Source: Escherichia phage vB_EcoM_JNE01. Taken from it: a stretch of 64,000 bases of DNA. The position numbers were made by a program, and so were the translations under genes. The stretch lies in sequence record OR670491. One strand, written 5' to 3'. Shown piece after piece: positions 26,905 through 64,000 of this stretch. How positions within the stretch are numbered: the stretch's first letter is position 1; every line of letters starts with the position of its first letter. The notes beneath the pieces were generated by a model that had not been told where the DNA came from, did no database searches, and saw only the letters and a list, made by a program, of their open reading frames with translations.

Positions 26905-26921
26905 ACAATCGAGGAATTGTC

Positions 26922-52356: not shown

Positions 52357-52357
52357 T

Positions 52358-52552: not shown

Positions 52553-52561
52553 GGCACTAAC

Positions 52562-54202: not shown

Positions 54203-54234
54203 ACGGCTAAACGGCTAAACGGCTAAACGGCTAA
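54203..54234. repeat. iteron-like tandem repeat (ACGGCTAA x4)
   Basis: Four perfect 8-bp units with degenerate copies and GGATGG/GGACG motifs on both sides. Confidence 0.6.
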
Positions 54235-54878
54235 ACGTCTGGATGTATGGATGGCTAAATCAAAATTTTATTTTGTTTTTTCCAATAGTTCCCCTACCGC
54301 GTGGGGATAGTTTCCCCGCAGTATCTGGTGTTAGATTTTTCTGAATCTGGAATCATTATCTTATAAACTGGGGGCAATGTCAACGGCCTGGACGGATATT
54401 TTTAAAAATTTTTTCAGTACTGAATTTTGGGCGTAACTATGCACCCGGTGGGCTTGAGTCTTTCTCGACTTGATGGAACTATTATACAGTACTGAAAAAA
54501 TAAAGCAATACCCTGGAAGCAAAAAAGTTTTAATTAATTTGCTTGCTATCCTGGGCCGGACTATGGTACTATATTTCAGTACTGAGAAAGTGCGTTTACC
54601 TGCTAGGGTGCGGGAGTGTATCCTTTTTTTATATCTTGAATTTTGGACGGATCTTCCCACCCCCTGGGGTATCCGCTTTCTCGCGTCTATGTAGTAATTA
54701 TACGCTTTTTCAGGATCAAGTCAATACCTAAAAACAAAATAATTGAAAATAATTTAACGCGTTTAAACGGCCCGTAACGCCCTGGAATGATTAGAATGGT
54801 GCAAATGTATAGCTTAGGTGTATTAATGCGTTAGAATGCGTCTGAGGCCGTTTTATGGGGTGTAGTAGTGATTTGGTT

Positions 54879-55046
54879 GATTCAGTACTGAATAATAGTA
54901 CTCCTATATAGAAAGATAGTTCCCCTGGATTGATTCAGTACTGAATGATAGTACTGAATAATAGTACTCCTATATAGAAAGATAGTTCCCCTGGATTGAT
55001 TCAGTACTGAATGATAGTACTGAATAATAGTTCCCCTATATAGAAA
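54879..55046. repeat. tandem direct repeats (unit 53-66 bp, about 2.5 copies)
   Basis: Unit GATTCAGTACTGAATGATAGTACTGAATAATAGTACTCCTATATAGAAAGATAGTTCCCCTGGATT, each copy carrying 2-3 AGTACT palindromes. Confidence 0.65.
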
Positions 55047-55079
55047 GAAAACTATTTTAAAAGTATTTGTAGAAAGTAC

Positions 55080-55139
55080 TTGCACAGTACTGATAAAAGC
55101 GTATAATGTTTTACATCGAGAGCGGGAACTCTTCCCGCT
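55080..55139 (+). promoter_or_regulatory. promoter / 5' stem-loop cassette
   Basis: TTGCAC, 16-nt spacer, TATAAT (55102-55107), gttttacatc, hairpin AGCGGGAA-ctc-TTCCCGCT (55121-55139). Confidence 0.6.
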
Positions 55140-55162
55140 ACACTTTAAGAGAGATTAATACG

Positions 55163-55525
55163 ATGGCGACTCAAATCACTAAAATCATTGCTAACCTGGT
55201 TAACTTCCGCGACGATATGAAAGATCTTCCGGCGGCAACGGTTAAAACTCACATTGACGCATACCGCGAACTGATTAAAATGCTGCCGCTTAAGCGTGAA
55301 CAATACGCCGCCACCGTGATGCTTGATGCGATGATCCATAAGATGATCGCCAGTGATTTAACGATGGCTTATCAGTATATGGGTGAATTGTTCGCGGTGT
55401 ATAGTAAACCAGTACCAGGAATGGAAAGTACAGAAGTATTACACGGTTTAAATTTAAAACAAGATGCATGGGATAATATGCCTCGTTTCCTGGTATGGGC
55501 TGACAGTGGCAAAATTTACGAATAA
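55163..55525 (+). CDS. hypothetical protein
   Basis: Internal ATG (frame +57) of track ORF 55106, downstream of the cassette hairpin. Confidence 0.5.
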   Translation: MATQITKIIANLVNFRDDMKDLPAATVKTHIDAYRELIKMLPLKREQYAATVMLDAMIHKMIASDLTMAYQYMGELFAVYSKPVPGMESTEVLHGLNLKQDAWDNMPRFLVWADSGKIYE

Positions 55526-55538
55526 GTTAAAAATTAGT

Positions 55539-55597
55539 TTGACAGTACTGAATAAAAGCGTATAATGTTTTACATCAGGTGGGGAATAGTTCCCCAC
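55539..55597 (+). promoter_or_regulatory. promoter / 5' stem-loop cassette
   Basis: TTGACA-N16-TATAAT; hairpin GTGGGGAA-tag-TTCCCCAC. Confidence 0.6.
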
Positions 55598-55617
55598 TAT
55601 ATAAGAGGATTAAAAAA

Positions 55618-55857
55618 ATGGCTAAATCAAAAATGTTCTTAGGTCACAAAAATAAAACTCATTGGAATGTAAGCCTTTGGATTAATAACGATGAGGGATT
55701 GTATCGGTTGGCCCAGGACTTTATTAACGATAGCACTAATCGCAATGATGCGGCCCGTCATATGATGTTATTTTTAGAACAGACTGGACAAGATAAAACA
55801 CCGGACGGATTCAAATATAGCACTACTGCGATCCGTGCGGCAATGGTAGGAATGTAA
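55618..55857 (+). CDS. hypothetical protein (paralog of 57659..57898)
   Basis: 79 aa; shared GHKNKTHWNVSLWINN ... TPDGFKYSTTAIRAAMVGM. Confidence 0.5.
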   Translation: MAKSKMFLGHKNKTHWNVSLWINNDEGLYRLAQDFINDSTNRNDAARHMMLFLEQTGQDKTPDGFKYSTTAIRAAMVGM

Positions 55858-55943
55858 TAGAATATATTTAAAGTACTATCATTTTTTTGCGATAGTACTT
55901 TATAATAGTGTTTTATTCATACACCAACGATAAGGGCAACAGC

Positions 55944-56210
55944 ATGAATATTAAGTATTTTGCGACGCGTGAACAAGCTCGGATCGCCGCTCGCCAGGAC
56001 GGGGCAACGTTTAAAGATATGGGCGTACAATCGGAACGTGGTAAACGTTGGGCCATTGTAAAGCGTAGTACCGCCAGATCATTACAGTACTGGTTAGCGG
56101 CCTTAAAAAGTCCCGATAGTGTATCGCGTCGAGTGGTAGAAATAAAGCTCGACCGAAAGGGCAACCGCGTGACCGTGTACCGTACTAAAAAGATAGCAGT
56201 ACTTGAATAA
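55944..56210 (+). CDS. hypothetical basic protein
   Basis: Internal ATG (frame +36) of track ORF 55908. Confidence 0.45.
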   Translation: MNIKYFATREQARIAARQDGATFKDMGVQSERGKRWAIVKRSTARSLQYWLAALKSPDSVSRRVVEIKLDRKGNRVTVYRTKKIAVLE

Positions 56211-56217
56211 AAAGTAC

Positions 56218-56276
56218 TTGCAAACTATGTTTAATGGCGTATAATGTTTTACATCGAGAGCGGGAACTCTTCCCGC
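56218..56276 (+). promoter_or_regulatory. promoter / 5' stem-loop cassette
   Basis: TTGCAA-N16-TATAAT; hairpin GCGGGAA-ctc-TTCCCGC. Confidence 0.6.
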
Positions 56277-56297
56277 CTATAACCTGGAGTAATAAAA

Positions 56298-56528
56298 ATG
56301 ACTAATATGTATATGACTGAAGTTAAAACCGTAAAAGATACTACCACGAATAAAACTACTTACTTACAGCGGATCTGCGGTGTATGGCAACGTATCAGCA
56401 AATCAAAGTACTTTAAATTAACATCATATGCAAATCGTTCGGATTCATTCAGTACTGAAATAAAAGGTAATAAAGTACACCAATACGGCACTTATTATTA
56501 TTACAGCCTGGACGCGATTGCAGTATAA
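56298..56528 (+). CDS. hypothetical protein
   Basis: 76-aa ORF with GGAG RBS. Confidence 0.45.
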   Translation: MTNMYMTEVKTVKDTTTNKTTYLQRICGVWQRISKSKYFKLTSYANRSDSFSTEIKGNKVHQYGTYYYYSLDAIAV

Positions 56529-56778
56529 GCAGTTTACAAATCTTTACAATTGCCGGTATTGACTTATTTTGTCAGTACTGGCATAATGTATTCATTGGCA
56601 GATAAGCCGTAGCCCATAGGGTGCGGGAGTGTATCTATAGAAAAATTAGTTTAGTATAGTTACAATTGTGCACCCGGTGGGTTAGCTGTTGTCATGGGGT
56701 ATATTATGCCAGTACTTGATAATTCTGTCAATACTTTTTTTTTACTATTCAGTACTGAAAACTATTTTTAAAAAGTAC

Positions 56779-56896
56779 TTGCAAACTATGTTTAAAGGCG
56801 TATAATGTTTTACATCAGGACGGGGAACGAAATAAGTAACTTCCCGTTAAGTAGCCCAGGAGTAAGGCACACGAAAAACTCCCCTGATAAAATAGT
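56779..56896 (+). promoter_or_regulatory. orphan promoter with ~90-nt structured leader (candidate small RNA)
   Basis: TTGCAA-N16-TATAAT (to 56806), then tacatcaggacggggaac...acgaaaaactcccctga with no ORF; a second promoter follows. Confidence 0.45.
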
Positions 56897-56924
56897 TTGA
56901 CAAATGTTTTTAAAAGCGTATAAT
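56897..56924 (+). promoter_or_regulatory. sigma70-type promoter
   Basis: TTGACA-N16-TATAAT, 32 nt upstream of the 56957 ATG. Confidence 0.55.
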
Positions 56925-56956
56925 ACTTACATCAACTACTGAATGAGGGTTACAAA

Positions 56957-57568
56957 ATGAAAACTATCACTACTACTACTTTCGTTATGGATTTTTCTGA
57001 ATTGAACGCAGAACAACAAACGTCAGCTATCGAACTGGTTCGGGATCGTGAGCGTTCATGTGAGGATAATTTCTTTGCTGAGGGCGTTATCGAGTACTAT
57101 AAAGAAACAGTACTACCAGAATACGGCATAGATGAAGCTGAATTGCAATACAGTGGTTTTTGGTCGCAAGGTGACGGTGCATCAATCAGTACTGACAGCG
57201 TGGACGCAGTGAAGTTTTTACGCAAGATTAAAGCGTTAACGAAATATCGTTCTATCCGTCACTTGTTGAATGAAGATGATTTGGCAATGAGTGTAGAACG
57301 TTCACACTCTCGCTACGCACACGAAAACACGGTAAGCGGGTACATTGAATCGGCTTACACTGATTTAACCGCAAAACAAGAAACGTTAGTTAATGAGCTT
57401 GAGGAACTACTCACTGATACTATTCGTGAATTGTCCCGCAAGTTGTACCGTGATTTAGAGAATGCATATGAGGATCAATTCACTACTGAAAACATTACGG
57501 CACTGATTGAGGGTAACGAATATCAATTCAATGTTATTGATGGCGTAGTGGAATCAATCGAATATTAA
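56957..57568 (+). CDS. hypothetical acidic protein
   Basis: 203-aa ORF with GAGGGT RBS. Confidence 0.5.
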   Translation: MKTITTTTFVMDFSELNAEQQTSAIELVRDRERSCEDNFFAEGVIEYYKETVLPEYGIDEAELQYSGFWSQGDGASISTDSVDAVKFLRKIKALTKYRSIRHLLNEDDLAMSVERSHSRYAHENTVSGYIESAYTDLTAKQETLVNELEELLTDTIRELSRKLYRDLENAYEDQFTTENITALIEGNEYQFNVIDGVVESIEY

Positions 57569-57580
57569 TTTAAAAAGTAC

Positions 57581-57640
57581 TTGCAAACTAAGTTTAAAAG
57601 CGTATAATACTTTATATCGAGGCGGGGAGTGGTTCCCCGC
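57581..57640 (+). promoter_or_regulatory. promoter / 5' stem-loop cassette
   Basis: TTGCAA-N16-TATAAT; hairpin GCGGGGA-gtggt-TCCCCGC. Confidence 0.6.
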
Positions 57641-57658
57641 TCAAACGAGGATTTAAAA

Positions 57659-57898
57659 ATGGCTAGTACTAAAACTTACAACGGACACAAAAACAAAACT
57701 CATTGGAATGTAAGCCTTTGGATTAATAACGGTGAGTCATTGTATCGGCTTGCTCAAAGTTGCATCGCACAAAGTAGAACTAAAGATATTGCTGCGGAAT
57801 GTATGTACCGCAGATTAAAAGCCAACGGTACTACTACAACGCCGGACGGCTTTAAGTATAGCACTACTGCGATCCGTGCTGCAATGGTTGGAATGTAA
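57659..57898 (+). CDS. hypothetical protein (paralog of 55618..55857)
   Basis: 79 aa sharing the GHKNKTHWNVSLWINN motif. Confidence 0.5.
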   Translation: MASTKTYNGHKNKTHWNVSLWINNGESLYRLAQSCIAQSRTKDIAAECMYRRLKANGTTTTPDGFKYSTTAIRAAMVGM

Positions 57899-57955
57899 TA
57901 TTCAGTACTGAGATAATGGCGGGTAATAGTTCCCGCCTTTACTGAGGGTTATCTA

Positions 57956-58216
57956 ATGAGTAAAGTAATTAGCTATACAGCACTAAGCAAGACATTATCT
58001 ATTAGCCAGTGCACCGATGGTTATTGGCTATTTGATGAAACGCGTGGCATGAATTTAGCGATGCGTGCAAAAACTGCTGAGGCGGCGTATATTCAAGCAC
58101 TGGAATACTACCAGGAACGTTTAAAGGAAGTAGAAGAAGATTATAAAAGCCTCAAAGCGAAAGTAGATCATTTCGTCGGTCAATTCAACGAGGAAGACGA
58201 CGACAAACAATATTGA
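57956..58216 (+). CDS. hypothetical protein
   Basis: 86-aa ORF preceded by hairpin GGCGGG...CCCGCC and GAGGGT. Confidence 0.45.
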   Translation: MSKVISYTALSKTLSISQCTDGYWLFDETRGMNLAMRAKTAEAAYIQALEYYQERLKEVEEDYKSLKAKVDHFVGQFNEEDDDKQY

Positions 58217-58224
58217 AAAAGTAC

Positions 58225-58283
58225 TTGCAATTAGTTTTCAGTACTGTATAATGGTTTACATCAAAGGGAGAAATGGTTCTCCC
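58225..58283 (+). promoter_or_regulatory. promoter / 5' stem-loop cassette
   Basis: TTGCAA-N16-TATAAT; hairpin GGGAGAA-atgg-TTCTCCC. Confidence 0.6.
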
Positions 58284-58302
58284 TGGTAATGAGGAAAATA
58301 AA

Positions 58303-58524
58303 ATGGCTAATATCACTACTCTTTCCCAACTGGAAGCACTGGTGAAATCTATGCGGGAACATGCCGACAAAATCGGCGTACAAGATCCAGCCGTTTGCTT
58401 CTGCGACGAATTGAATGATGATACCCTGGTAATAGCAGAAGTCCAGGACGTTTCTAACTATTCCTCGCGTTACACTGGCGGCGTAGCAAATAAAGGCGAC
58501 TTCTGTTTATACCTTACAAAATAA
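58303..58524 (+). CDS. hypothetical protein
   Basis: Internal ATG (frame +30) of track ORF 58273. Confidence 0.45.
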   Translation: MANITTLSQLEALVKSMREHADKIGVQDPAVCFCDELNDDTLVIAEVQDVSNYSSRYTGGVANKGDFCLYLTK

Positions 58525-58529
58525 CAACG

Positions 58530-58559
58530 CGGGGAGATAATAACTCCCCGTTACTTTTT
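58530..58559 (+). terminator. rho-independent terminator
   Basis: CGGGGAG-ataataa-CTCCCCG followed by TTACTTTTT. Confidence 0.6.
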
Positions 58560-58692
58560 CAGTACTGAATCATTTAATAGACGGATCTCGGCACCCGGTG
58601 GGTTAGTGACTGTTTCGTCTTGATGTAGTAATTATGCCAGTACTGGATGCACTTGTCAACAACTATTTTTCAAATACTTTTTATTAAAATAC

Positions 58693-58740
58693 TTGCAATT
58701 AGTTTTTAAACGCGTATAATGTTTTGCATAGGGGGAGCGG
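58693..58740 (+). promoter_or_regulatory. promoter / 5' stem-loop cassette
   Basis: TTGCAA-N16-TATAAT; short hairpin GGGGA-gcggt-TCCCC. Confidence 0.55.
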
Positions 58741-58767
58741 TTCCCCTGGTAACTAAGGAATAATAAA

Positions 58768-59004
58768 ATGCTTGAACAAATCAAATCAACGTCTGCGAAT
58801 GTAACGGGAACGGTATCACACTTTACTAGTGATGAATCGCGTGGTGTTCCTTATTGTGCTGTACATGTAAACACTGATGGCAACTACTGGTTTACGGTTT
58901 ACGGATCATATTCATTTGGACGGCCAGGGCATCAAAAAATTCTGGATAAAGTACAACCAACGGGTAAAAATATCACTGCCGAAATGTTTTATAAAAAATC
59001 ATAA
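58768..59004 (+). CDS. hypothetical protein
   Basis: 78-aa ORF. Confidence 0.45.
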   Translation: MLEQIKSTSANVTGTVSHFTSDESRGVPYCAVHVNTDGNYWFTVYGSYSFGRPGHQKILDKVQPTGKNITAEMFYKKS

Positions 59005-59009
59005 AGTAC

Positions 59010-59069
59010 TTGCAATTAGTTTTTAGTACTGTATAATATTTTACATCGCAAGGGGAAACGGTTTCCCCT
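59010..59069 (+). promoter_or_regulatory. promoter / 5' stem-loop cassette
   Basis: TTGCAA-N16-TATAAT; hairpin AGGGGAAA-cgg-TTTCCCCT. Confidence 0.6.
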
Positions 59070-59088
59070 GGTAACTAAGGATAATCAA

Positions 59089-59388
59089 ATGAAAGTTGCA
59101 ATCATCGCCCTGGCTTTATCTGTATCGTCTTTCGCTGTTAACGCTTCCGTTGATGTACCGCGTGAAAAATTCATTCAGTGCACTGTTGCAATGACTAACG
59201 AGGAAACGGCTGAGATTGTTACCAAATCCCTGGAACTGGCCCCTGCAATGTTTGCTAATGGCCCGTACCATGAAGAAGATGATCAGGGTAGCACGACCAT
59301 CTATTACGATGCAAAAAGTAAACGCGGTTCAGTTACTGTAATGGATACTGAGAAAGTTACATTCACGGGAGTAATTAATTGTTTTTAA
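59089..59388 (+). CDS. hypothetical secreted protein
   Basis: Signal-peptide-like MKVAIIALALSVSSFAVNA. Confidence 0.5.
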   Translation: MKVAIIALALSVSSFAVNASVDVPREKFIQCTVAMTNEETAEIVTKSLELAPAMFANGPYHEEDDQGSTTIYYDAKSKRGSVTVMDTEKVTFTGVINCF

Positions 59389-59405
59389 TGAAGTACTGAA
59401 TCATA

Positions 59406-59433
59406 AGCCCACTATAAGAAGTGGGCTTTTTTT
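59406..59433 (+). terminator. rho-independent terminator
   Basis: AGCCCAC-tataagaa-GTGGGCT + T7. Confidence 0.6.
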
Positions 59434-59475
59434 ATTGTAGTACTGAATACTTTAAAAATAGTTTTGAAATAGTAG

Positions 59476-59618
59476 TTGACATTACCAGGGAAAGGCGTAG
59501 AATGTATTACATCAGGACGGGGAACACTAAGTAGACCGCCAGTAAGTCGAACGAAAAACTGGACACGACCTGGAAACTTTGATAAACTAACTTACACTTT
59601 AATTGAGGAATTAAAAAA
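59476..59618 (+). promoter_or_regulatory. promoter with long structured leader (second copy of the 56807 leader motif)
   Basis: TTGACA-N16-TAGAAT, then tacatcaggacggggaac ... cgaacgaaaaactgg, 115-nt leader before ATG. Confidence 0.45.
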
Positions 59619-60098
59619 ATGGCAAATGTAAAATCATTCTTTAAAGCACTGGTATCTTCTGACGTATCTATCGCCGCTGAATTGCTGGCTGACCTGGATA
59701 ATGATACCATGAAAGCAGTACGCAATAATTTTAATATGGCGTACAGTGCAGCAAAAGAACTGCAAGCCAAAAAGGTAGCAGAACTGGAAGCGGCAAAGGC
59801 AGAACGTGAAGCAGAACTGCAAGCAACAATCGAAAGCATCCAGGCGGCGGTAAGTGGATTGGATATCGAGATCGTAACCGATATGGCACATAAAGCCCTA
59901 GCTGCAAAATACGGTGAAGTAAAAGCGGTTAAAGAAAAGAAATGGATTCAGGACCGCGTTAACGTAGTACTTGACAACGGGGAAGAATATCTTATTCCTG
60001 TACGCGGTAACTGCATTGCCGTAGTACTGGACGCGATTAACTCCAGTGGTATGACACGCGAGGAATGGATCGAAGCTCATCGCAAAGTTGAAGCATAA
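59619..60098 (+). CDS. hypothetical protein
   Basis: 159-aa ORF, Ala/Glu/Lys-rich central segment. Confidence 0.5.
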   Translation: MANVKSFFKALVSSDVSIAAELLADLDNDTMKAVRNNFNMAYSAAKELQAKKVAELEAAKAEREAELQATIESIQAAVSGLDIEIVTDMAHKALAAKYGEVKAVKEKKWIQDRVNVVLDNGEEYLIPVRGNCIAVVLDAINSSGMTREEWIEAHRKVEA

Positions 60099-60119
60099 CA
60101 ATAAAAGTACTGAATCACT

Positions 60120-60146
60120 AGCCCACCTTAAACGGTGGGCTTTTTT
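60120..60146 (+). terminator. rho-independent terminator
   Basis: AGCCCACC-ttaaac-GGTGGGCT + T6. Confidence 0.6.
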
Positions 60147-60300
60147 GTGTTTATCGTTTACCAGGCCACCAGCACCGCCTAGAAACGATTCTAACGCATT
60201 AAACTGATTATCTGATGCATTGCCCTAGCTGGTGGCGTTAAGGCTGTAAGAACGCGATTGAGAGCGTTTAAAGTATTTTGCAAAAAGTAATAAAAAGTAC

Positions 60301-60328
60301 TTGCACGATTAAGAGATTAGCGTATAAT
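60301..60328 (+). promoter_or_regulatory. sigma70-type promoter
   Basis: TTGCAC-N16-TATAAT with A-rich upstream tract. Confidence 0.5.
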
Positions 60329-60373
60329 TAATTACATCAAGGCAAGACACCTTAACTAACTGAGGATATAAAG

Positions 60374-60526
60374 ATGAATACTTATGACCTGGATTGTTTT
60401 ACTTTACAAGTAATGTCAGTATGCAGTAAGAAAGATTGGTCATCAAAGGAATTTAAAGCAGTTATCGCGTGTGCAAAACACGGCAAGACTATCAATGAAA
60501 CGGCATCAATCATTGATAAACTTTAA
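60374..60526 (+). CDS. hypothetical 50-aa protein
   Basis: MNTYDLDCFTLQVMSVCSKKDW... after GAGGA; not in track. Confidence 0.35.
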   Translation: MNTYDLDCFTLQVMSVCSKKDWSSKEFKAVIACAKHGKTINETASIIDKL

Positions 60527-60534
60527 AAAATAGT

Positions 60535-60563
60535 TTGACAATAGTTTTAAGTACTGGCATAAT
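60535..60563 (+). promoter_or_regulatory. sigma70-type promoter (class B, CATAAT -10)
   Basis: TTGACA, 17-nt spacer ending agtactgg, CATAAT. Confidence 0.5.
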
Positions 60564-60595
60564 ACATACATCAACTACTGAATAGGAATTAAAAA

Positions 60596-60823
60596 ATGGC
60601 TATTATCATTACTCGCGTATCTGGTACTACTGGCAACGAACAAGTAGTTGCAGTCATTACCAACAAGGAAGGTGCGGAATTGCAAAATGCAATGAATACC
60701 TGGGCCGTTAATGAGTTCGGTCAGTGGGCAAGTGTAGCATACATTGAAACCTATCAAGTGCCGTCGATTAGTTTAACTGATTTGGGCGTTGAGCGTATCC
60801 TTTGCCTGGATGAATTAAATTAA
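60596..60823 (+). CDS. hypothetical protein
   Basis: 75-aa ORF. Confidence 0.45.
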   Translation: MAIIITRVSGTTGNEQVVAVITNKEGAELQNAMNTWAVNEFGQWASVAYIETYQVPSISLTDLGVERILCLDELN

Positions 60824-60831
60824 AAAAGTAC

Positions 60832-60891
60832 TTGCAAAGTAAATCGAATAAAGTATAATACATTACATCAAGGGGAGAAATGGTTCTCCCC
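60832..60891 (+). promoter_or_regulatory. promoter / 5' stem-loop cassette
   Basis: TTGCAA-N16-TATAAT; hairpin GGGGAGAA-atgg-TTCTCCCC. Confidence 0.6.
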
Positions 60892-60908
60892 ACTACAAGG
60901 AAACTAAA

Positions 60909-61052
60909 ATGAAAACTTGTCAATGTGGTCATAAATCTATTACGGGTTTTAAGCGGGGCGTTGCTCTTTGCCAGTACCATTATAATTTACAAGTATGGGG
61001 TAAAGAATGGGCCGACCAGGTGGAAGCAGCAAAGAAAGCAAAAAGTAAGTAA
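60909..61052 (+). CDS. hypothetical 47-aa Cys-rich protein
   Basis: MKTCQCGHKSITGFKRGVALCQYHY...; not in track. Confidence 0.35.
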   Translation: MKTCQCGHKSITGFKRGVALCQYHYNLQVWGKEWADQVEAAKKAKSK

Positions 61053-61070
61053 AATATTATCACAGTACTA

Positions 61071-61099
61071 TTGACATAGTTTGATAGTACTGGCATAAT
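61071..61099 (+). promoter_or_regulatory. sigma70-type promoter (class B)
   Basis: TTGACA-N17-CATAAT. Confidence 0.5.
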
Positions 61100-61140
61100 A
61101 GATTTTATCAAGACAACATATTAATTTAAGGAATACAAAA

Positions 61141-61464
61141 ATGGCTAAAACTATCATTAACACCGTTTCCCTGGCTGCAATCCGTGCAATCAATGTTGAC
61201 GGTAAACGTTGGACTGATACATATGGCAATACTTATCATTCTTGTCATGTAAGCGTTGAACTGGATAACGGTTTGAATGATCTGGCGGTTGAATCATTTA
61301 CTTATGGCTATGAAGATGCATATCAACAAACGGCGTTAGATCTATTAAAGGAATCAGTAGACGGGCTTAATACTGATGAAACCTCCCTTACTCGTTTGTG
61401 CAATGATCTTAATATCCCGTTGCATTGTACTGTACAGAATGTTAAACGCAAAAAAGATCTTTAA
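61141..61464 (+). CDS. hypothetical protein
   Basis: 107-aa ORF, AAGGAA RBS. Confidence 0.5.
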   Translation: MAKTIINTVSLAAIRAINVDGKRWTDTYGNTYHSCHVSVELDNGLNDLAVESFTYGYEDAYQQTALDLLKESVDGLNTDETSLTRLCNDLNIPLHCTVQNVKRKKDL

Positions 61465-61544
61465 TTAGCTTTACTTTATGCAGATACTTTGATATAGTGT
61501 CTGCATAGGGGAAAGAAATTAAATTAACTTAAGAGGATCGTATA

Positions 61545-61814
61545 ATGAAAAATATCAGTACTTTAATCGATACAGGTACTCATGTTCGTCGGTCTATGGT
61601 TGCAACCAGTACTACAAAACAAGTACCAAGCGGTTATCTTGTATTTGTGCACGATGGTAAACTCCTGGAACGTTCAATCAATTTTGATGTTAAAAACAAT
61701 TGCCGTTTTATTATCTTTAAGCGTGAGCAATATAAAATTGATTTACCAGCAAAGCCCATAAGCGGGGCGTACAACGTGCAATCATTGTTTGAACGTCAAC
61801 CATACACCTATTAA
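61545..61814 (+). CDS. hypothetical protein
   Basis: 89-aa ORF, AGAGGA RBS; near-palindrome ATGCAGATACT...AGTGTCTGCAT upstream. Confidence 0.45.
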   Translation: MKNISTLIDTGTHVRRSMVATSTTKQVPSGYLVFVHDGKLLERSINFDVKNNCRFIIFKREQYKIDLPAKPISGAYNVQSLFERQPYTY

Positions 61815-61865
61815 TCAAAACATCGTTAGCGGTCGATTTAGGCCGCGTATATTGGGGATTATACC

Positions 61866-62138
61866 ATGAACGTTAATCAAGTACTGAATGAGATCGAAAG
61901 CATCATTAAACCAATGAAACGCATTGATGCTATGTTAACACCGGAAGAATGCCGCCTTTATGAGCGTTACAGCGTCGAACAAGTCCAGGCAATGGCTATG
62001 GCTACCCCAGCCGTTAAACCGCCTGAGAATGCGTTACAGGACGTTACAGGGGATTATATCATCAATCCAGTACTAGGGAAGATGGCTGCAATCACCGAAG
62101 ATCAACAAGATTACTTAAGTCAGTACTTAAAAGGTTAA
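61866..62138 (+). CDS. hypothetical protein
   Basis: 90-aa ORF. Confidence 0.45.
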   Translation: MNVNQVLNEIESIIKPMKRIDAMLTPEECRLYERYSVEQVQAMAMATPAVKPPENALQDVTGDYIINPVLGKMAAITEDQQDYLSQYLKG

Positions 62139-62143
62139 TTAAT

Positions 62144-62353
62144 ATGCTTACTGTACAGGATAAGATCGACATCTTAAAGGTTAATATGTATGTGATTGAT
62201 GCAGTACCTGGTAAAGTATTTGCATACGATGACAGTACTGTAAGCGATTTCTACTATAGCCAGGACGTGGGGGATCTTTCTGTACAGTCGGTTATTGAAA
62301 ACGTAGTTAATGCAGCGTATGAGCATTTACTTTCAAATAGTACTTGCAATTAG
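62144..62353 (+). CDS. hypothetical protein
   Basis: 69-aa ORF; its last codons and stop lie inside the downstream promoter -35 (AGTACTTGCAATTAG). Confidence 0.45.
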   Translation: MLTVQDKIDILKVNMYVIDAVPGKVFAYDDSTVSDFYYSQDVGDLSVQSVIENVVNAAYEHLLSNSTCN

Positions 62354-62403
62354 TTTTTAAACGCGTATAATGTTTTACATGAAGGGGAGAAATGATTCTC
62401 CCC
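62344..62403 (+). promoter_or_regulatory. promoter / 5' stem-loop cassette
   Basis: TTGCAA-N16-TATAAT; hairpin GGGGAGAA-atga-TTCTCCCC. Confidence 0.6.
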
Positions 62404-62422
62404 ACTAATTAAGGAATATGAA

Positions 62423-62569
62423 ATGAAAGCATCAAAAAAGAGTAATACTAAGAAAGCACGTTCAACCTTAGATGGGGTATTCCCTTTACGTTTCGTTGAT
62501 GAAGTGGTGTCCTACCCGCCGGGCCTTACTCCTGAGATGGTAGAAAGTTTGCGTAAATCTAAAAAATAG
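62423..62569 (+). CDS. hypothetical 48-aa basic protein
   Basis: MKASKKSNTKKARSTLDGVFPLRF...; not in track. Confidence 0.35.
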   Translation: MKASKKSNTKKARSTLDGVFPLRFVDEVVSYPPGLTPEMVESLRKSKK

Positions 62570-62572
62570 TAC

Positions 62573-62632
62573 TTGCAATTAGTTTTTAGTACTGTATAAT
62601 AGTTTACATGAAGGGGAGAAATGATTCTCCCC
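62573..62632 (+). promoter_or_regulatory. promoter / 5' stem-loop cassette
   Basis: TTGCAA-N16-TATAAT; hairpin GGGGAGAA-atga-TTCTCCCC. Confidence 0.6.
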
Positions 62633-62650
62633 AATAACAGGAGAATCAAA

Positions 62651-62803
62651 ATGAAACAATACAACGCTCGGTTTGATGTTACTATCGGTAACGGCAAAGG
62701 TCAATTCTCTTTCAGTACTCGCAAAAGTTATACAGAAAACTTCCTGCGTAATTGTGCACTGACCGCCGCTCAAATTAAACATTACTTTCAGGCTAAAAAA
62801 TGA
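62651..62803 (+). CDS. hypothetical 50-aa protein
   Basis: Internal ATG (frame +30) of track ORF 62621, after AGGAG. Confidence 0.4.
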   Translation: MKQYNARFDVTIGNGKGQFSFSTRKSYTENFLRNCALTAAQIKHYFQAKK

Positions 62804-62889
62804 AAACATTAGCTTACTATAGTTCGGCCCTGGTCGGTGCATTGATCGCGGCGTTGTTAGTAACCTATCTATTCTTTATGGTGATTTAA
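62800..62889 (+). CDS. possible 29-aa hydrophobic micro-protein
   Basis: MKTLAYYSSALVGALIAALLVTYLFFMVI; ATGA overlap with the upstream stop. Confidence 0.25.
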   Translation: MKTLAYYSSALVGALIAALLVTYLFFMVI

Positions 62890-63033
62890 ATGAATCCAAC
62901 AGGTTTAAACTATAAAAGTTGTTCGGCGTTTACGAAAGCAAATAAAGCGAATGCACGTAAAGCGAAAGTACAAGAATACATCAAGCAAGGCATGACGCGA
63001 AAGGCGGCGATTCTAAAAGCTAAAAATAAATGA
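62890..63033 (+). CDS. hypothetical 47-aa basic protein
   Basis: MNPTGLNYKSCSAFTKANKANARKAKVQEY...; start directly after the upstream stop. Confidence 0.3.
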   Translation: MNPTGLNYKSCSAFTKANKANARKAKVQEYIKQGMTRKAAILKAKNK

Positions 63034-63040
63034 AAAAAGT

Positions 63041-63071
63041 GGTTGACTCCGGTCAGCCATTTTGCTATTAT
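63041..63071 (+). terminator. composite terminator-promoter element
   Basis: GGTTGAC-TCCG-GTCAGCC-ATTTTGC-TATTAT. Confidence 0.5.
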
Positions 63072-63175
63072 ATATTCATTGAGAGATAGCTCACTAGCCC
63101 ACAGGGTGCATAAGTGTATCTATTATATGAGTATTGAGTACTGAAAACTATTTTAAAAGTATTTGTAGAAAGTAC

Positions 63176-63234
63176 TTGCAAACTATCTCAATAAGCGTAT
63201 AATGTTTTACATCGAAAGGGGAAACGGTTTCCCC
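63176..63234 (+). promoter_or_regulatory. promoter / 5' stem-loop cassette
   Basis: TTGCAA-N16-TATAAT (63198-63203); hairpin GGGGAAAC / GTTTCCCC (63218-63234). Confidence 0.6.
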
Positions 63235-63254
63235 TGATAATAAGGAAACAAATC

Positions 63255-63596
63255 ATGACTATCTCAATTGCTCAATCTAACTTTGAAAACGAAATCATCG
63301 CCCAGGCACTGCGTTTAAATGATGGTCGGGCCGAAATTAATTACGGTTTCAATTCAGGCGGTTGTGAAAAATATCAGTACTTTGTAACGGCTGATGGCGG
63401 TGTCCTGGGTATCAATACAGTTATTGTAAACATCCAAAAAATTAATTTCAATGATCCAGACGATAGCCAGTTTTACATCACTGGCGTAGACGTGAACTAT
63501 GAGGATGACTCACTAACTGATGATCACACTGGTGAGAAGTTAGAGAGTGCATACGGTGAAGATGATTATCAGTCAGTACCGGAAGATTTTGAATAA
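63255..63596 (+). CDS. hypothetical acidic protein
   Basis: 113-aa ORF, AAGGAAA RBS. Confidence 0.5.
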   Translation: MTISIAQSNFENEIIAQALRLNDGRAEINYGFNSGGCEKYQYFVTADGGVLGINTVIVNIQKINFNDPDDSQFYITGVDVNYEDDSLTDDHTGEKLESAYGEDDYQSVPEDFE

Positions 63597-63611
63597 TATT
63601 AAAAAAATAGT

Positions 63612-63671
63612 TTGACAATAGATTATAGTACTGTATAATAGTTTACATCAAGGGGAGAAAAACTTCTCCCC
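63612..63671 (+). promoter_or_regulatory. promoter / 5' stem-loop cassette
   Basis: TTGACA-N16-TATAAT; hairpin GGGGAGAA-aaac-TTCTCCCC. Confidence 0.6.
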
Positions 63672-63693
63672 ACTAACAGAGAGAGAAAACAAA

Positions 63694-63906
63694 ATGGCTA
63701 ATATCTGCACTGTACTGAAAAATGCAAAACAAGTTTTATTTTCTGATCACGATCATTTAAACAAGGATATTACTGGCGTTCGGAATATCAAAGATGTAAA
63801 AAGTGTTATGGGTATCTATTGCAATATGAAACGTGTTGGAACGTTCGGCGACAAAGTACTATACCAGGCAGGGGATTACAATTTTACACTGACTATCATT
63901 AACTAA
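63694..63906 (+). CDS. hypothetical protein
   Basis: 70-aa ORF. Confidence 0.45.
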   Translation: MANICTVLKNAKQVLFSDHDHLNKDITGVRNIKDVKSVMGIYCNMKRVGTFGDKVLYQAGDYNFTLTIIN

Positions 63907-63934
63907 AAATATATTACCAGTACTATTAAATCTA

Positions 63935-63963
63935 TTGACAACGTTTGATAGTACTGACATAAT
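63935..63963 (+). promoter_or_regulatory. sigma70-type promoter (class B); gene continues beyond window
   Basis: TTGACA-N17-CATAAT, then acatcaactacactactaaggaattaaaaaat at the window edge. Confidence 0.45.
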
Positions 63964-64000
63964 AACTTTTATCAACTACACTACTAAGGAATTAAAAAAT

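What the first reader, a model, noticed from the sequence alone, without database searches (positions are those of the whole stretch)
55080..63963. Block of promoter / 5' stem-loop / RBS / small-ORF cassettes with covarying stems
At least 13 units share the same architecture: A-rich tract, AAAGTACTTGCAA -35, 16-nt spacer, TATAAT, gttttacatc, a G-rich/C-rich perfect hairpin, then RBS and ATG of a small ORF. Stem sequences differ between copies but stay complementary (GCGGGAA/TTCCCGC, GTGGGGAA/TTCCCCAC, GGGAGAA/TTCTCCC, GGGGAAAC/GTTTCCCC, GGGGAGAA/TTCTCCCC), so the structure itself is selected. The block looks higher in G+C than the rest of the window, and some ORFs end inside the next promoter (62144-62353). 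From memory, unverified here, this resembles the promoter-early-stem-loop (PeSL) cassettes reported for some T4-type phages, but this set of stems and small genes is not one I can match.
Basis: partly seen in the sequence, partly recalled or inferred. Interest (0 to 1): 0.75.

Follow-up and report, generated by a model that had tools for sequence, protein, structure and literature searches.

The report
Early promoter–5′ hairpin gene cassettes
The block is a real array of strong host-type promoters, each followed by a conserved RNA hairpin, a ribosome site and a tiny gene of unknown function, in the terminal repeat of a 121Q-like jumbo coliphage; it is a relocated-hairpin variant of the "PeSL" shuffling cassettes known from T4-like phages, not a new kind of system.

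Summary
The window is an Asteriusvirus (121Q/PBECO4-like jumbo coliphage). The block lies in the first 10.7 kb of its ~21-kb direct terminal repeat, which starts at about 53340.

Twelve canonical cassettes share one layout: A-tract, AGTAC-TTGCAA/TTGACA, 16-nt spacer, TATAAT, a conserved ACAT, a 7-9-bp G-run/C-run hairpin starting 8-14 nt (mostly 12-14) after the -10, then SD and ATG. There are also three variants.

- **Structure is selected.** Of 116 promoters defined without reference to a hairpin, 88 carry one, against 2.8% background. All 8 stem pairs show double (compensatory) changes.
- **Selection acts on the sense-strand RNA.** Non-Watson-Crick stem pairs are G·U, never A·C.
- **Cassettes are recombination sites.** Indel and replacement breakpoints against seven relatives concentrate in them (10 of 24, p=6e-4), often with duplicated flanking homology. 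The same cassettes and genes occur in shuffled order in Vequintavirinae phages.

The best reading is early sigma-70 promoter / 5'-UTR hairpin modules that also act as homology patches for gene shuffling. They are PeSL-like. However, RB49 PeSLs place the hairpin inside the promoter, whereas here it is transcribed. What the hairpin RNA does (5'-end protection or insulation versus attenuation) is inferred, not shown.

Verdict: new variant of a known kind, moderate interest.

The parts
53340..64000 (+). Part of the ~21-kb direct terminal repeat (DTR) held in the window; contains the whole block.
   Evidence: Position 1 of fEgEco12 aligns to window 53340; its termini were set by PhageTerm and restriction mapping (PMC13070987). 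The annotated 21,525-bp DTR of vB_Ec-M-J maps to about 53341. Cassette BLAST hits lie under 'Direct Terminal Repeats' features.
55066..55162 (+). Cassette 1 and first of the array. -35 TTGCAC 55080-55085, -10 55102-55107, hairpin AGCGGGAA-ctc-TTCCCGCT 55121-55139, ATG 55163.
   Evidence: 5' UTR MFE -14.7 kcal/mol, z -3.6
55525..55617 (+). Cassette 2. -35 TTGACA 55539, -10 55561-55566, hairpin GGTGGGGAA-tag-TTCCCCACT 55578-55598, ATG 55618.
   Evidence: vB_Ec-M-J has an extra gene here, flanked by two copies of this cassette.
56204..56297 (+). Cassette 3. -35 56218, -10 56240-56245, hairpin GCGGGAA-ctc-TTCCCGC 56260-56276, ATG 56298.
57567..57658 (+). Cassette 4. -35 57581, -10 57603-57608, hairpin GGCGGGGAG-tgg-TTCCCCGCT 57621-57641 (two G·U pairs), ATG 57659.
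   Evidence: Its gene is a paralogue of the cassette-2 gene, and the two stems differ by a compensated U-A to C-G change.
58211..58302 (+). Cassette 5. -35 58225, -10 58247-58252, hairpin AGGGAGAA-atgg-TTCTCCCT 58265-58284, ATG 58303.
   Evidence: Breakpoint cluster at 58212 in five relatives.
58679..58767 (+). Cassette 6. -35 58693, -10 58715-58720, hairpin TAGGGGGA-gcgg-TTCCCCTG 58729-58748 (two G·U pairs), ATG 58768.
58996..59088 (+). Cassette 7. -35 59010, -10 59032-59037, hairpin AGGGGAAA-cgg-TTTCCCCT 59051-59069, ATG 59089.
   Evidence: Orthologues in four relatives carry AGGGGGAG-cgg-TTCCCCCT, an A-U to G-C compensated change plus a G·U pair.
60818..60908 (+). Cassette 8. -35 60832, -10 60854-60859, hairpin GGGGAGAA-atgg-TTCTCCCC 60872-60891, ATG 60909.
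   Evidence: Cassette plus gene are also present in Vequintavirinae phages A7_1 and LTH01.
62330..62422 (+). Cassette 9. -35 62344, -10 62366-62371, hairpin GGGGAGAA-atga-TTCTCCCC 62384-62403, ATG 62423. The upstream ORF 62144-62353 ends inside it.
62559..62650 (+). Cassette 10. -35 62573, -10 62595-62600, hairpin GGGGAGAA-atga-TTCTCCCC 62613-62632, ATG 62651.
   Evidence: 121Q has one chimeric cassette in place of cassettes 9 and 10 and lacks gene 62423-62569.
63162..63254 (+). Cassette 11. -35 63176, -10 63198-63203, hairpin AGGGGAAA-cgg-TTTCCCCT 63217-63235, ATG 63255.
   Evidence: WPEC3 and CMSTMSU have an extra 468-nt gene flanked by duplicates of 63171-63258.
63598..63693 (+). Cassette 12. 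-35 TTGACA 63612, -10 63634-63639, hairpin GGGGAGAA-aaac-TTCTCCCC 63652-63671, ATG 63694.
   Evidence: z -4.1
56765..56895 (+). Variant unit: class-A promoter (-35 56779), long-loop hairpin ACGGGGAAC...CTTCCCGT, about 85-nt leader, no ORF. Probably a small RNA.
   Evidence: Conserved in all Asteriusvirus loci and at 88.6% identity in Vequintavirinae A7_1.
59462..59618 (+). Variant unit: TTGACA-N16-TAGAAT promoter (59476) with a related 'CAGGACGGGGAAC' leader of about 110 nt before ATG 59619.
   Evidence: (homologue in LTH01)
57919..57938 (+). Hairpin GGCGGG-taatagtt-CCCGCC upstream of ATG 57956, without a class-A promoter (degraded cassette).
   Evidence: L001 422, L005 8429. In G17 and 121Q the same site carries a full promoter plus hairpin.
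53708..53790 (+).
26847..26925 (+). The only hairpin cassette found outside the DTR: TTGACA-N16-TATAAT with GGGGATGA-acttc-TCATCCCC.
   Evidence: Resembles the Klebsiella phage Muenster cassettes.
56897..56956 (+). Hairpin-less promoter TTGACA-N16-TATAAT with the leader ACATCAACTACTGAA; drives the 203-aa ORF.
   Evidence: MFE -1.1
60300..60373 (+). TTGCAC-N17-TATAAT promoter without a GC hairpin; drives the 50-aa ORF 60374-60526. That ORF is absent from vB_Ec-M-J, WPEC3 and SP27.
60535..60595 (+). Class-B promoter TTGACA-N17-(TG)GCATAAT, leader ACATCAACTACTGAA, no hairpin.
   Evidence: class B: 0 of 35 carry a hairpin
61071..61140 (+). Class-B promoter, no hairpin. It is duplicated around an extra gene in vB_Ec-M-J, 121Q and WPEC3.
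63935..63963 (+).
58529..58561 (+). Canonical intrinsic terminator (GC hairpin followed by a U run).
59405..59436 (+). Canonical intrinsic terminator.
   Evidence: D17
60120..60147 (+). Canonical intrinsic terminator.
   Evidence: D17

Best explanation
The block is the promoter-proximal half of the early (probably first-entering) gene region of an Asteriusvirus jumbo coliphage, carried in its direct terminal repeat. Each canonical unit is a self-contained expression module with four parts:
- an A-rich UP-like tract that overlaps the end of the upstream gene;
- a host sigma-70 promoter (AGTAC-TTGCAA/TTGACA, 16-nt spacer, TATAAT);
- a predicted start at the invariant A, the 8th nt after the -10;
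- a 7-9-bp G-run/C-run hairpin beginning 8-14 nt (mostly 12-14) after the -10, i.e. about 1-7 nt (mostly 4-7) into the transcript, then an unstructured SD and AUG of a 29-203-aa protein of unknown function.

**Shown by sequence analysis.**
- The modules exist and are far beyond chance.
- The hairpin is tied to one promoter class.
- The hairpin is maintained by compensatory change.
- Its mismatches are those tolerated in sense-strand RNA.
- The roughly 90-nt modules are where related phages differ by insertion, deletion and replacement of genes.

**Inferred.**
- The promoters fire early from host RNA polymerase.
- The hairpin acts on the module's own mRNA. It would serve as a 5'-proximal structure that protects the message from 5'-end-dependent decay and/or insulates the ribosome-binding site from upstream RNA context. 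That would let each small gene be expressed the same way wherever the module lands.
- The conserved module sequence serves as the homology patch for recombinational shuffling, as proposed for PeSLs.
For: **Promoters.** There are 10 exact TTGCAA-N16-TATAAT sites against 0.15 expected. Full 12-of-12 or 10-of-12 consensus matches are clustered on the + strand. An A-tract lies upstream.

**Location.** The block lies in the DTR. Thirteen of the 14 hairpin cassettes sit in the 10.7 kb of DTR, against 1 in the other 53 kb. BLAST finds about 19-23 cassette places per genome record with one DTR copy, and 38-40+ when both copies are in the record.

**Hairpin tied to promoter class.** 88 of 116 class-A promoters carry a hairpin against 2.8% background; 0 of 35 class-B promoters do.

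**Fold.** All 12 UTRs give one dominant hairpin of -10.9 to -15.6 kcal/mol, with SD and AUG unpaired.

**Covariation.** All 8 pairs have double changes, in 41 cells. No shuffle of 500 reaches this, and slid controls give 0-8 cells. There are 38 distinct hairpins but only 23 distinct arm pairs, so loops vary faster than stems.

**Sense-strand RNA signature.**
- Among unique arm pairs there are 8 internal G·T pairs, 0 A·C and 1 T·T.
- The inner six pairs hold 14 G·U cells and 0 non-pairs.
- Most of these arise as A-to-G in the 5' arm. The mirror change, T-to-C in the 3' arm, is never seen.

**Structure kept, sequence replaced.** Another genus shows the same position with different stems: Klebsiella Muenster has GGGAATGAA/TTCATTCCC, GGAGATTCCA/TGGAATCTCC and others.

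**Against a mainly terminating role.**
- The hairpins lack U tracts, while three canonical terminators occur in the same block.
- The hairpin lies downstream of its own start site, so an efficient terminator would kill its own gene.
- It is present on cassette 1 (nothing upstream to terminate) and on cassette 6 (after terminator 58529). Class-B promoters that directly abut genes have none.

**Shuffling.**
- 10 of 24 breakpoint clusters fall in hairpin cassettes, which cover 13.4% of the block (p=6e-4).
- Duplicated homology flanks indels at 55553-55613, 61042-61117 and 63171-63258.
- 121Q carries one chimeric cassette where the window has two plus a gene.
- Homologous genes and cassettes occur in a different order in Vequintavirinae A7_1 and LTH01. 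The cassette alone occurs in Phapecoctavirus nepoznato.
Against: - No transcript data exist for this phage group in the searchable literature. Start sites, timing and read-through are all predicted.
- The predicted unpaired 5' leader is mostly 4-7 nt. To my knowledge of the Belasco-lab ompA work, 5' hairpins protect best when no more than about 2-4 nt precede them, so stabilisation is plausible but not assured.
- The RB49 PeSL211/210 stem-loop also lacks a U tract, yet was reported to reduce downstream lacZ as strongly as rrnB T1 (PMC2839356). Absence of a U tract therefore does not exclude attenuation.
- Eneladusvirus relatives keep the promoter but mostly lack the hairpin, so the hairpin is dispensable for expression as such.
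- Hairpins used for the covariation count were picked by a hairpin finder, and their loops were replaced by a constant spacer. Copies are paralogues and orthologues, not independent samples.
- The invariant purine-first polarity of the stems is not explained by this model.
Confidence: 0.55

Rival explanations
1. PeSL-type attenuator. The hairpins mainly stop or dampen read-through transcription coming from the upstream module. Each gene then depends on its own promoter, and the 5'-UTR position is incidental.
For: - This is the published function of the closest known family. An RB49 PeSL stem-loop cut lacZ expression like rrnB T1 (PMC2839356).
- That stem-loop has no U tract either.
- Most modules here follow the upstream stop codon with no other terminator.
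Against: - The hairpin lies after its own predicted start site in 88 of 116 class-A promoters, so an efficient terminator would also abort its own mRNA.
- RB49 avoids this by placing the hairpin inside the promoter.
- Canonical U-tract terminators are used elsewhere in the same block.
- Hairpins occur on the first cassette of the array and after a true terminator, while class-B promoters that abut genes have none.
Confidence: 0.25
2. DNA-level element. The inverted repeats are binding sites for a dimeric regulator (an operator shutting off early promoters at about +15), or targets or cruciforms for a recombination protein.
For: - They sit where an operator would block elongation.
- The PeSL authors speculated about a GGGG...CCCC-binding recombination protein.
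- Breakpoints do cluster in the cassettes.
Against: - Half-site sequences differ between copies and are wholly different in Muenster.
- Loop length (and so half-site spacing) varies from 3 to 6 nt.
- Mismatches are G·T only, never A·C. This asymmetry is expected for one strand (RNA), not for duplex recognition or a two-sided cruciform.
- Recombination is equally explained by about 90 nt of plain homology; class-B promoters without hairpins also flank indels (61042-61117).
Confidence: 0.08
3. Translational switch. The C/U-rich 3' arm is an anti-SD that sequesters the ribosome-binding site once the 5' arm is removed or opened, for example by a RegB-like cut at GGAG. This would switch early genes off.
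For: - The 5' arms are SD-like (GGGGAGAA) and the 3' arms anti-SD-like.
- For cassette 10, the truncated UTR folds 3' arm to SD at -11.6 kcal/mol.
Against: The other eleven cassettes give only -0.6 to -5.6 kcal/mol after removal of the 5' arm. The alternative pairing is therefore not a general property.
Confidence: 0.05
4. No selection on the hairpin. It is merely a passenger within a promoter repeat that spreads by duplication.
For: The modules are a repeat family, and many hairpins are identical (GGGGAGAA/TTCTCCCC accounts for 33 of the copies).
Against: - All 8 stem pairs show compensated changes.
- Orthologous and duplicated cassettes differ by paired substitutions.
- Stems stay intact while loops and flanks diverge.
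- A different genus keeps the position and the pairing with different sequences.
Confidence: 0.03

Closest known systems
PeSLs (promoter-early stem-loops) of T4-like phages RB49/phi1, T4/PST and KVP40/nt-1 (Arbiol et al. 2010, PMC2839356; Comeau et al. 2014, PMC4122927)
   Same: - Near-consensus sigma-70 early promoter.
- AT-rich tract that contains the upstream stop codon.
- G-run/C-run stem-loop with the purine arm first. RB49 has AGGGGAG...CTCCCCT; here GGGGAGAA...TTCTCCCC.
- SD and ATG at the 3' end.
- About 90-100 nt of conserved sequence.
- Clustering in a plastic region of small ORFans.
- Indels and replacements between relatives with breakpoints in the cassettes.
   Different: - In RB49 the stem-loop fills the -35/-10 spacer or overlaps the -10. 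Here it is at a near-fixed site 8-14 nt (mostly 12-14) after the -10, inside the module's own transcript, and shows an RNA-strand mismatch signature.
- The spacer is 16 nt with TTGCAA, not TTGACA-N17.
- AGTACT boxes flank the -35.
- The array sits in a direct terminal repeat.
- The host genomes are Asteriusvirus-like jumbo phages, plus Vequintavirinae and Phapecoctavirus, not Straboviridae.
- Terminator activity and mini-circles were not tested here.
RpoD-like promoters with UP-like element in the early region and terminal repeat of the related jumbo phage CBB (Buttimer et al. 2017, PMC5259590)
   Same: Same broad phage group. Sigma-70-type promoters preceded by an UP-like element and concentrated in front of short hypothetical genes, including in the terminal repeat; interpreted there as early host-takeover genes.
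   Different: That paper describes no hairpin, covariation or shuffling. None of the Asteriusvirus or RaK2 papers I read (phAPEC6, Sharanji, fEgEco12, RaK2) mentions promoters or hairpins at all.
5'-terminal stabilising stem-loops of E. coli mRNAs (ompA 5' UTR type; own knowledge of the Emory/Bouvet/Belasco work, not re-read here)
   Same: A stable hairpin close to the 5' end of the message, sequence-independent but pairing-dependent, upstream of a free RBS.
   Different: The predicted single-stranded leader here is mostly 4-7 nt, at or beyond the length reported to allow protection. No half-life data exist.
Pre-early (first-step-transfer) genes in the terminal repeat of phage T5 (own knowledge)
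   Same: Strong host-type promoters driving small host-takeover genes located in a long direct terminal repeat that enters the cell first.
   Different: There is no sequence relationship. T5 two-step injection has not been shown for these phages, and the hairpin module is not a described T5 feature.
Morons (Hendrix/Juhala concept) and integron gene cassettes, as analogies used by the PeSL authors
   Same: Single small genes that travel with their own expression signals.
   Different: Morons carry their own terminator and lack conserved flanking homology. Integron cassettes are promoterless and need attC sites plus an integrase. Neither fits here.

Membership tests
PeSL (promoter-early stem-loop cassette) | Strong sigma-70-like early promoter (-35/-10). 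| tested here: met
   10 exact TTGCAA-N16-TATAAT against 0.15 expected. Consensus scan gives 10-12 of 12 matches. Activity itself was not tested.
PeSL (promoter-early stem-loop cassette) | AT-rich tract upstream of the -35 that contains the stop codon of the upstream gene. | tested here: met
   Stops lie 3-15 nt before the -35, or inside the promoter (62351-62353).
PeSL (promoter-early stem-loop cassette) | Stable stem-loop, typically G-run ... C-run. | tested here: met
   7-9-bp stems, -10.9 to -15.6 kcal/mol. Same purine-first polarity as RB49.
PeSL (promoter-early stem-loop cassette) | Stem-loop placed within or over the promoter or just before the start site (five subclasses; commonest are between -35 and -10 or over the -10). 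| tested here: not met
   Here the hairpin starts 8-14 nt (mostly 12-14) after the -10, downstream of the predicted start. RB49 examples read directly have it in the spacer or over the -10.
PeSL (promoter-early stem-loop cassette) | SD and start codon at the 3' end of the cassette. | tested here: met
PeSL (promoter-early stem-loop cassette) | Preferential location in hyperplastic regions, next to ORFans. | tested here: met
   13 of 14 hairpin cassettes are in the DTR. The ten proteins tested fall only in families of unknown function. Relatives cover 45-96% of the block in 5-12 pieces.
PeSL (promoter-early stem-loop cassette) | Differences between close relatives (indels, replacements) have their junctions in the cassettes. 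| tested here: met
   10 of 24 breakpoint clusters fall in 13.4% of the sequence, p=6e-4. Duplicated flanking homology. Chimeric single cassette in 121Q.
PeSL (promoter-early stem-loop cassette) | Stem-loop acts as a transcription terminator or attenuator. | not testable with these tools
   No U tract, but the RB49 stem-loop reported as a terminator has none either.
PeSL (promoter-early stem-loop cassette) | Recombination between neighbouring cassettes yields mini-circles. | not testable with these tools
   Needs inverse PCR on infected cells. Gene 62423-62569 between two near-identical cassettes is the obvious target.
PeSL (promoter-early stem-loop cassette) | Described host genomes are T4-like myoviruses (Straboviridae). 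| tested here: not met
   The window is an Asteriusvirus. The same cassettes occur in Alcyoneusvirus, Vequintavirinae and Phapecoctavirus.
Intrinsic (Rho-independent) terminator | GC-rich hairpin immediately followed by a U run. | tested here: not met
   None of the 12 cassette hairpins passes the scan. Sites 58529, 59405 and 60120 in the same block do.
5'-terminal mRNA-stabilising stem-loop | Hairpin within a few (about 2-4 or fewer) unpaired nt of the 5' end. | tested here: inconclusive
   The predicted start at the invariant A (8th nt after the -10) leaves 4-6 unpaired nt in 10 of 12 cassettes, 3 in one and none in cassette 6. The start site is not mapped.
Operator / protein-binding palindrome | Conserved half-site sequence at fixed spacing. 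| tested here: not met
   23 different arm pairs, loops of 3-6 nt, and only G·T mismatches.
Known RNA family (Rfam) | Match to a curated covariance model. | tested here: not met
   No hit at gathering score on the whole window, and none at E up to 1 on 53000-64000.

The most novel reading that the evidence does not exclude
The (A)GGGRA...UYCCC(U) hairpin, always purine arm first, may be a specifically recognised signal rather than a generic structure. Promoter-plus-hairpin modules would then form an integrase-less gene-cassette exchange system. That system would move small early or anti-host genes between otherwise unrelated virulent coliphages: Krischvirus PeSLs, Asteriusvirus and Alcyoneusvirus terminal repeats, Vequintavirinae and Phapecoctavirus. 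A host or phage factor would read the hairpin as RNA or as single-stranded DNA.
Probability: 0.15. Interest if true: 0.7.

Novelty: new variant of a known kind. Interest (0 to 1): 0.5.

Why it matters
- **Scope of PeSLs.** The result extends the PeSL idea (expression modules that double as recombination linkers) beyond T4-like phages. It now reaches the terminal repeats of 350-kb jumbo phages and rV5-like phages, and the same modules and small genes are seen circulating between these lineages.
- **An RNA role.** It supplies what the T4 work lacked: sequence evidence that the stem-loop is selected as sense-strand RNA. In this variant the hairpin is part of the gene's own 5' UTR, which points to a role in mRNA fate rather than only termination.
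- **Practical uses.** The cassettes mark the early host-takeover genes of a phage group in which more than 80% of genes have no function. They define about 20 compact natural promoter/UTR parts per genome. They also explain why this region is the most mosaic part of Asteriusvirus genomes.

Tried and rejected
- **Rfam and tRNA scans.** Nothing found.
- **Terminator reading.** Cassette hairpins fail the U-tract test. This is not decisive, because the RB49 stem-loop reported as a terminator also has no U tract.
- **3'-arm/SD translational switch.** Only cassette 10 gives a strong alternative fold, so it is rejected as a general mechanism.
- **Operator or cruciform reading.** Rejected on variable half-sites and spacing and on the G·T-only asymmetry.
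- **G+C excess caused by the hairpins.** No. The block's intergenic DNA is 34.4%, and the coding sequence (40.5%) carries the excess.
- **MAFFT alignment of whole cassettes (A1).** It did not keep the stems in structural register. Covariation was therefore counted on a loop-anchored, arms-only alignment with a constant artificial GAAA loop. The paired percentage there is inflated by construction; the double-change counts and slid controls are the informative part.
- **Broken hairpins in phage CMSTMSU.** Only 2 of 13 are intact. The record is 'UNVERIFIED', has about half the usual ORF density, and the breaks are single-base losses in G/C runs. I treated these as probable sequencing errors, not evidence of hairpin loss.
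- **Function of the small proteins.** Pfam and PHROGs give only families of unknown function, plus sub-threshold noise.
- **Literature.** Eight papers were read, seven literature searches run. PeSLs are described only for T4-likes. There is no promoter or hairpin description for Asteriusvirus or RaK2-like phages, and no transcript maps.
- **Not done.** Scans of IMG/VR or metagenomes, whole-genome cassette maps, and protein or structure searches were judged unnecessary for the verdict.

Full report
**1. What the window is**

The block 55000-64000 matches Asteriusvirus jumbo coliphages. The best hit is vB_Ec-M-J (93% identity over 96%). Others include fEgEco12, WPEC3, G17, SP27, 121Q and PBECO4. 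The matches come in 5-12 pieces covering 45-96% of the query, so this region is strongly mosaic among close relatives.

Position 1 of fEgEco12 aligns to window 53340. The termini and 20,993-bp direct terminal repeat (DTR) of that phage were set by PhageTerm and restriction digests (PMC13070987). The annotated 21,525-bp DTR of vB_Ec-M-J maps to the same point.

**2. The observation**

- TTGCAA-N16-TATAAT occurs 10 times, all on the + strand between 56218 and 63203, against 0.15 expected.
- The repeat finder independently reports a 90-nt family (9 copies) and a 51-nt family (14 copies).
- Reading the sequence and a promoter-anchored hairpin scan give twelve canonical cassettes. Each has a 16-nt spacer and a 7-9-bp G-run/C-run hairpin starting 8-14 nt (mostly 12-14) after the -10, followed by SD and ATG.
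- There are three variants at 56779, 59476 and 57919.
- The quoted stems are all present.
- ORF 62144-62353 ends inside the next promoter. The other upstream ORFs stop 3-15 nt before the -35. The A-rich UP-like tract is therefore coding and yields Lys-rich C-termini.
- G+C is 38.6% against 35.3%, higher than any other 8.9-kb window. The excess is in the coding sequence, not the hairpins.

**3. Two promoter classes**

Class A is (AAAGTAC)TTGCAA/TTGACA-N16-TATAAT followed by a conserved ACAT. Class B is TTGACA-N17-(TG)nCATAAT followed by ACATCAACTACTGAA.

Promoters were defined without reference to any hairpin, over the window and seven Asteriusvirus loci.
- 88 of 116 class-A promoters carry a hairpin of at least 6 bp. 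It is 86 of 103 without the error-ridden CMSTMSU record.
- Random 36-nt windows carry one 2.8% of the time.
- None of 35 class-B promoters carries one.

The hairpin is thus a module attached to one promoter class. It is not a general feature of intergenic DNA here.

**4. Is the structure selected, and on which molecule?**

*Folding.* As RNA, each of the 12 5' UTRs gives a single dominant hairpin (-10.9 to -15.6 kcal/mol). The SD and AUG are unpaired. Hairpin-less promoters give 0 to -3.9 kcal/mol.

*Loops versus stems.* Across the window and seven relatives there are 38 distinct hairpins but only 23 distinct arm pairs. Loops therefore change faster than stems.

*Covariation.* I used a loop-anchored alignment of 34 distinct arm pairs, with the natural loops replaced by a constant spacer.
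- All 8 pairs show changes on both sides, in 41 cells.
- None of 500 shuffles reaches this.
- Sliding the partner by 1-3 columns gives 0-8 cells.

*Concrete cases.*
- The duplicated genes at 55618 and 57659 carry GUGGGGAA/UUCCCCAC and GCGGGGAG/UUCCCCGC.
- Cassette 59010 has AGGGGAAA/TTTCCCCT where four relatives have AGGGGGAG/TTCCCCCT.
- The Vequintavirinae phages A7_1 and LTH01 differ by GCGGGAA/TTCCCGC against GCGGCA/TGCCGC.

*Another genus.* In Klebsiella phage Muenster the DTR holds the same promoter and the same hairpin position with quite different stems, such as GGGAATGAA/TTCATTCCC, GGAGATTCCA/TGGAATCTCC and GGGGATAC/GTATCCCT.

*Strand test.* In a palindrome, an A-to-G change in the top-strand 5' arm (giving G·T) and a T-to-C change in the 3' arm (giving A·C) are the same mutation on opposite strands.
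- Internal non-Watson-Crick pairs among unique arm pairs number 8 G·T, 0 A·C and 1 T·T.
- The inner six pairs hold 14 G·U cells and no non-pair.
- Phapecoctavirus nepoznato adds another G·U.

This is the pattern expected if the + strand transcript, not duplex DNA or a two-sided cruciform, is what must pair.

*Caveats.* The copies are related, not independent. The hairpins in the count were chosen by a hairpin finder.

**5. Position relative to the transcript**

The -10 is a perfect TATAAT. The A and T of ACAT, the 8th and 9th nt after it, are invariant in the 14-cassette alignment. Sigma-70 promoters normally start about 7 (6-9) nt after the -10 and prefer a purine (established knowledge). With a start at that A, most cassettes have a 4-7-nt unpaired leader before the stem. 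The hairpin is therefore in the module's own mRNA. This is inference; no start-site data exist.

**6. Recombination**

Megablast of 50001-64000 against the seven relatives gives 24 breakpoint clusters inside the block.
- Ten fall in hairpin cassettes, which cover 13.4% of the block (p=6e-4).
- Thirteen fall in intergenic DNA, which is 30.9% of the block (p=0.015).
- Several 'coding' breakpoints are within 10 nt of a stop or start codon.

The junctions have the signature of homologous exchange between repeated modules.
- vB_Ec-M-J has an extra gene flanked by two copies of 55553-55613.
- vB_Ec-M-J, 121Q and WPEC3 have one flanked by copies of 61042-61117, a class-B promoter.
- WPEC3 and CMSTMSU have a 468-nt gene flanked by copies of 63171-63258.
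- fEgEco12 replaces the two genes between 57651 and 58205 by one.
- vB_Ec-M-J, WPEC3 and SP27 lack 60338-60584.
- 121Q lacks gene 62423-62569. It carries a single cassette whose upstream flank matches cassette 9 and whose spacer and RBS match cassette 10.

**7. Spread beyond the genus**

A 95-nt consensus cassette finds 71 phage records.
- Asteriusvirus genome records give about 19-23 places with one DTR copy and 38-40+ when both copies are in the record. This implies that nearly all copies lie in the DTR.
- Weaker matches occur in RaK2/K64-1/Muenster, the Munch group and Eneladusvirus, each near the genome end or in an annotated terminal repeat.
- One or two copies occur in roughly 141-151-kb coliphages of Vequintavirinae and Phapecoctavirus.

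In A7_1, a 5-kb stretch holds homologues (70-90% nt identity) of seven window genes in a different order, with three hairpin cassettes. In nepoznato only the cassette is shared, not the flanking genes.

Eneladusvirus keeps the AGTAC-TTGCAA-N16-TATAAT promoter but mostly lacks the hairpin. In the Erwinia phage locus scanned (pEa_SNUABM_49), only two such promoters are followed by a GC-rich hairpin. The hairpin is therefore an optional add-on.

**8. Comparison with PeSLs**

I read the primary papers and the RB49 sequence itself.

*Shared.* A sigma-70 early promoter, an AT-rich tract with the upstream stop codon, a purine-first G-run/C-run stem (RB49 AGGGGAG...CTCCCCT), SD plus ATG, a hyperplastic ORFan region, and junctions of indels in the cassettes.

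*Different.*
- RB49 places the stem-loop between -35 and -10 (TTGACA-GGGGATCggtGATCCCC-TATAAT) or over the -10, upstream of its own start. Here it is transcribed.
- Here the array is in a terminal repeat.
- The phages are not T4-like.

No paper I could find describes these elements in this phage group. The CBB paper reports RpoD-like promoters with UP-like elements in the early region and terminal repeat but no hairpin. The phAPEC6, Sharanji, fEgEco12 and RaK2 papers do not mention promoters.

**9. Mechanism**

*Shown.* The modules exist, the hairpin is selected, it carries an RNA-strand signature, and the modules are recombination junctions.

*Inferred.* Transcription is early and uses host RNA polymerase. 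The hairpin acts as a 5'-proximal structure of the module's own mRNA, for protection from 5'-end-dependent decay and/or insulation of the RBS.

*Arguments against a mainly terminating role.*
- The hairpins have no U tract, while three canonical terminators sit in the same block.
- A strong terminator just after its own start site would be self-defeating.
- Hairpins are present on the first cassette of the array and after a true terminator, while gene-abutting class-B promoters have none.

*Arguments the other way.*
- The RB49 stem-loop reported as a strong terminator also lacks a U tract.
- The predicted 5' leader is rather long for classical 5' protection.

*Rejected alternatives.* An anti-SD switch is not general. 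An operator reading does not fit the variable half-sites and spacing.

*Unexplained.* The strict purine-first polarity of all stems in four phage lineages.

**10. Verdict**

It is a new variant of a known kind: PeSL-like cassettes with a relocated, transcribed hairpin, in jumbo-phage terminal repeats, shared across phage families. Interest is moderate (0.5). The RNA function and the attenuator rival can only be separated by transcript mapping and mutant reporters.

Noticed in passing
window 54566-54625 (+), 56588-56640 (+), 63072-63130 (+); 58630-58580 (-), 56702-56660 (-), 54696-54646 (-), 54480-54430 (-): A family of about 50-nt non-coding units. Each has its own TTGAC(A/T)-N17-(TG)nCATAAT promoter, and they are often arranged as convergent pairs. 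All share the core CCCAnnGGGTGC and a predicted G·U-rich 3' hairpin; one copy is followed by a U run. Homologues exist in Klebsiella phage Muenster and Erwinia phage pEa_SNUABM_49. No Rfam match. They look like abundant early small RNAs of unknown role.
   Followed up: partly
window 56807-56895 and 59504-59618: A second ncRNA-like element follows a class-A-type promoter: a leader 'CAGGACGGGGAAC...AAGTAG...CGAAAAAC' with no ORF (first copy) or about 110 nt ahead of the ORF (second copy). It is conserved at 88.6% identity in the unrelated Vequintavirinae phage A7_1, and is also present in LTH01 and Muenster.
   Followed up: partly
whole window; densest from 48000 on: AGTACT occurs 243 times against about 22 expected from base composition; CAGTACTG is the commonest form. 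It lies on both strands, in genes and in promoters, directly before the -35 and before the -10. It also flanks the promoters of Alcyoneusvirus and Eneladusvirus. This could be a binding or modification signal; it is unexplained.
   Followed up: partly
window 53340-55065: The left end of the terminal repeat is non-coding and repeat-rich. It holds 8-bp tandem units (ACGGCTAA/GGCTAAAC) at 54130-54256 and a 66-bp tandem repeat at 54884-55015 (with a partial third copy) built from AGTACTGAAT boxes. These are candidates for packaging, replication or injection signals.
   Followed up: no
whole window: Many 6-bp palindromes are absent or depleted, for example CCATGG 0 against 6.4 expected and CAGCTG 0 against 3.3. 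This is consistent with restriction-site avoidance. CCWGG is about twofold over composition expectation.
   Followed up: no
window 55618-55857 and 57659-57898: Tandemly duplicated 79-aa genes (DUF7249, phrog_871), each with its own hairpin cassette. They are 82-89% identical over their ends. A Vequintavirinae homologue is 89.6% identical to the second copy.
   Followed up: partly
L005 (MH494197.1, phage CMSTMSU): This 'UNVERIFIED' record has single-base losses in the G/C runs of most hairpins and about half the usual ORF density. These are probably homopolymer sequencing errors, so the record should not be used for covariation or gene-content claims.
   Followed up: partly
window 38000-53300: GC skew flips sign (negative) over about 38-54 kb. 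Genes there run on the minus strand towards the terminal repeat, and transcription is divergent from the DTR boundary region.
   Followed up: no
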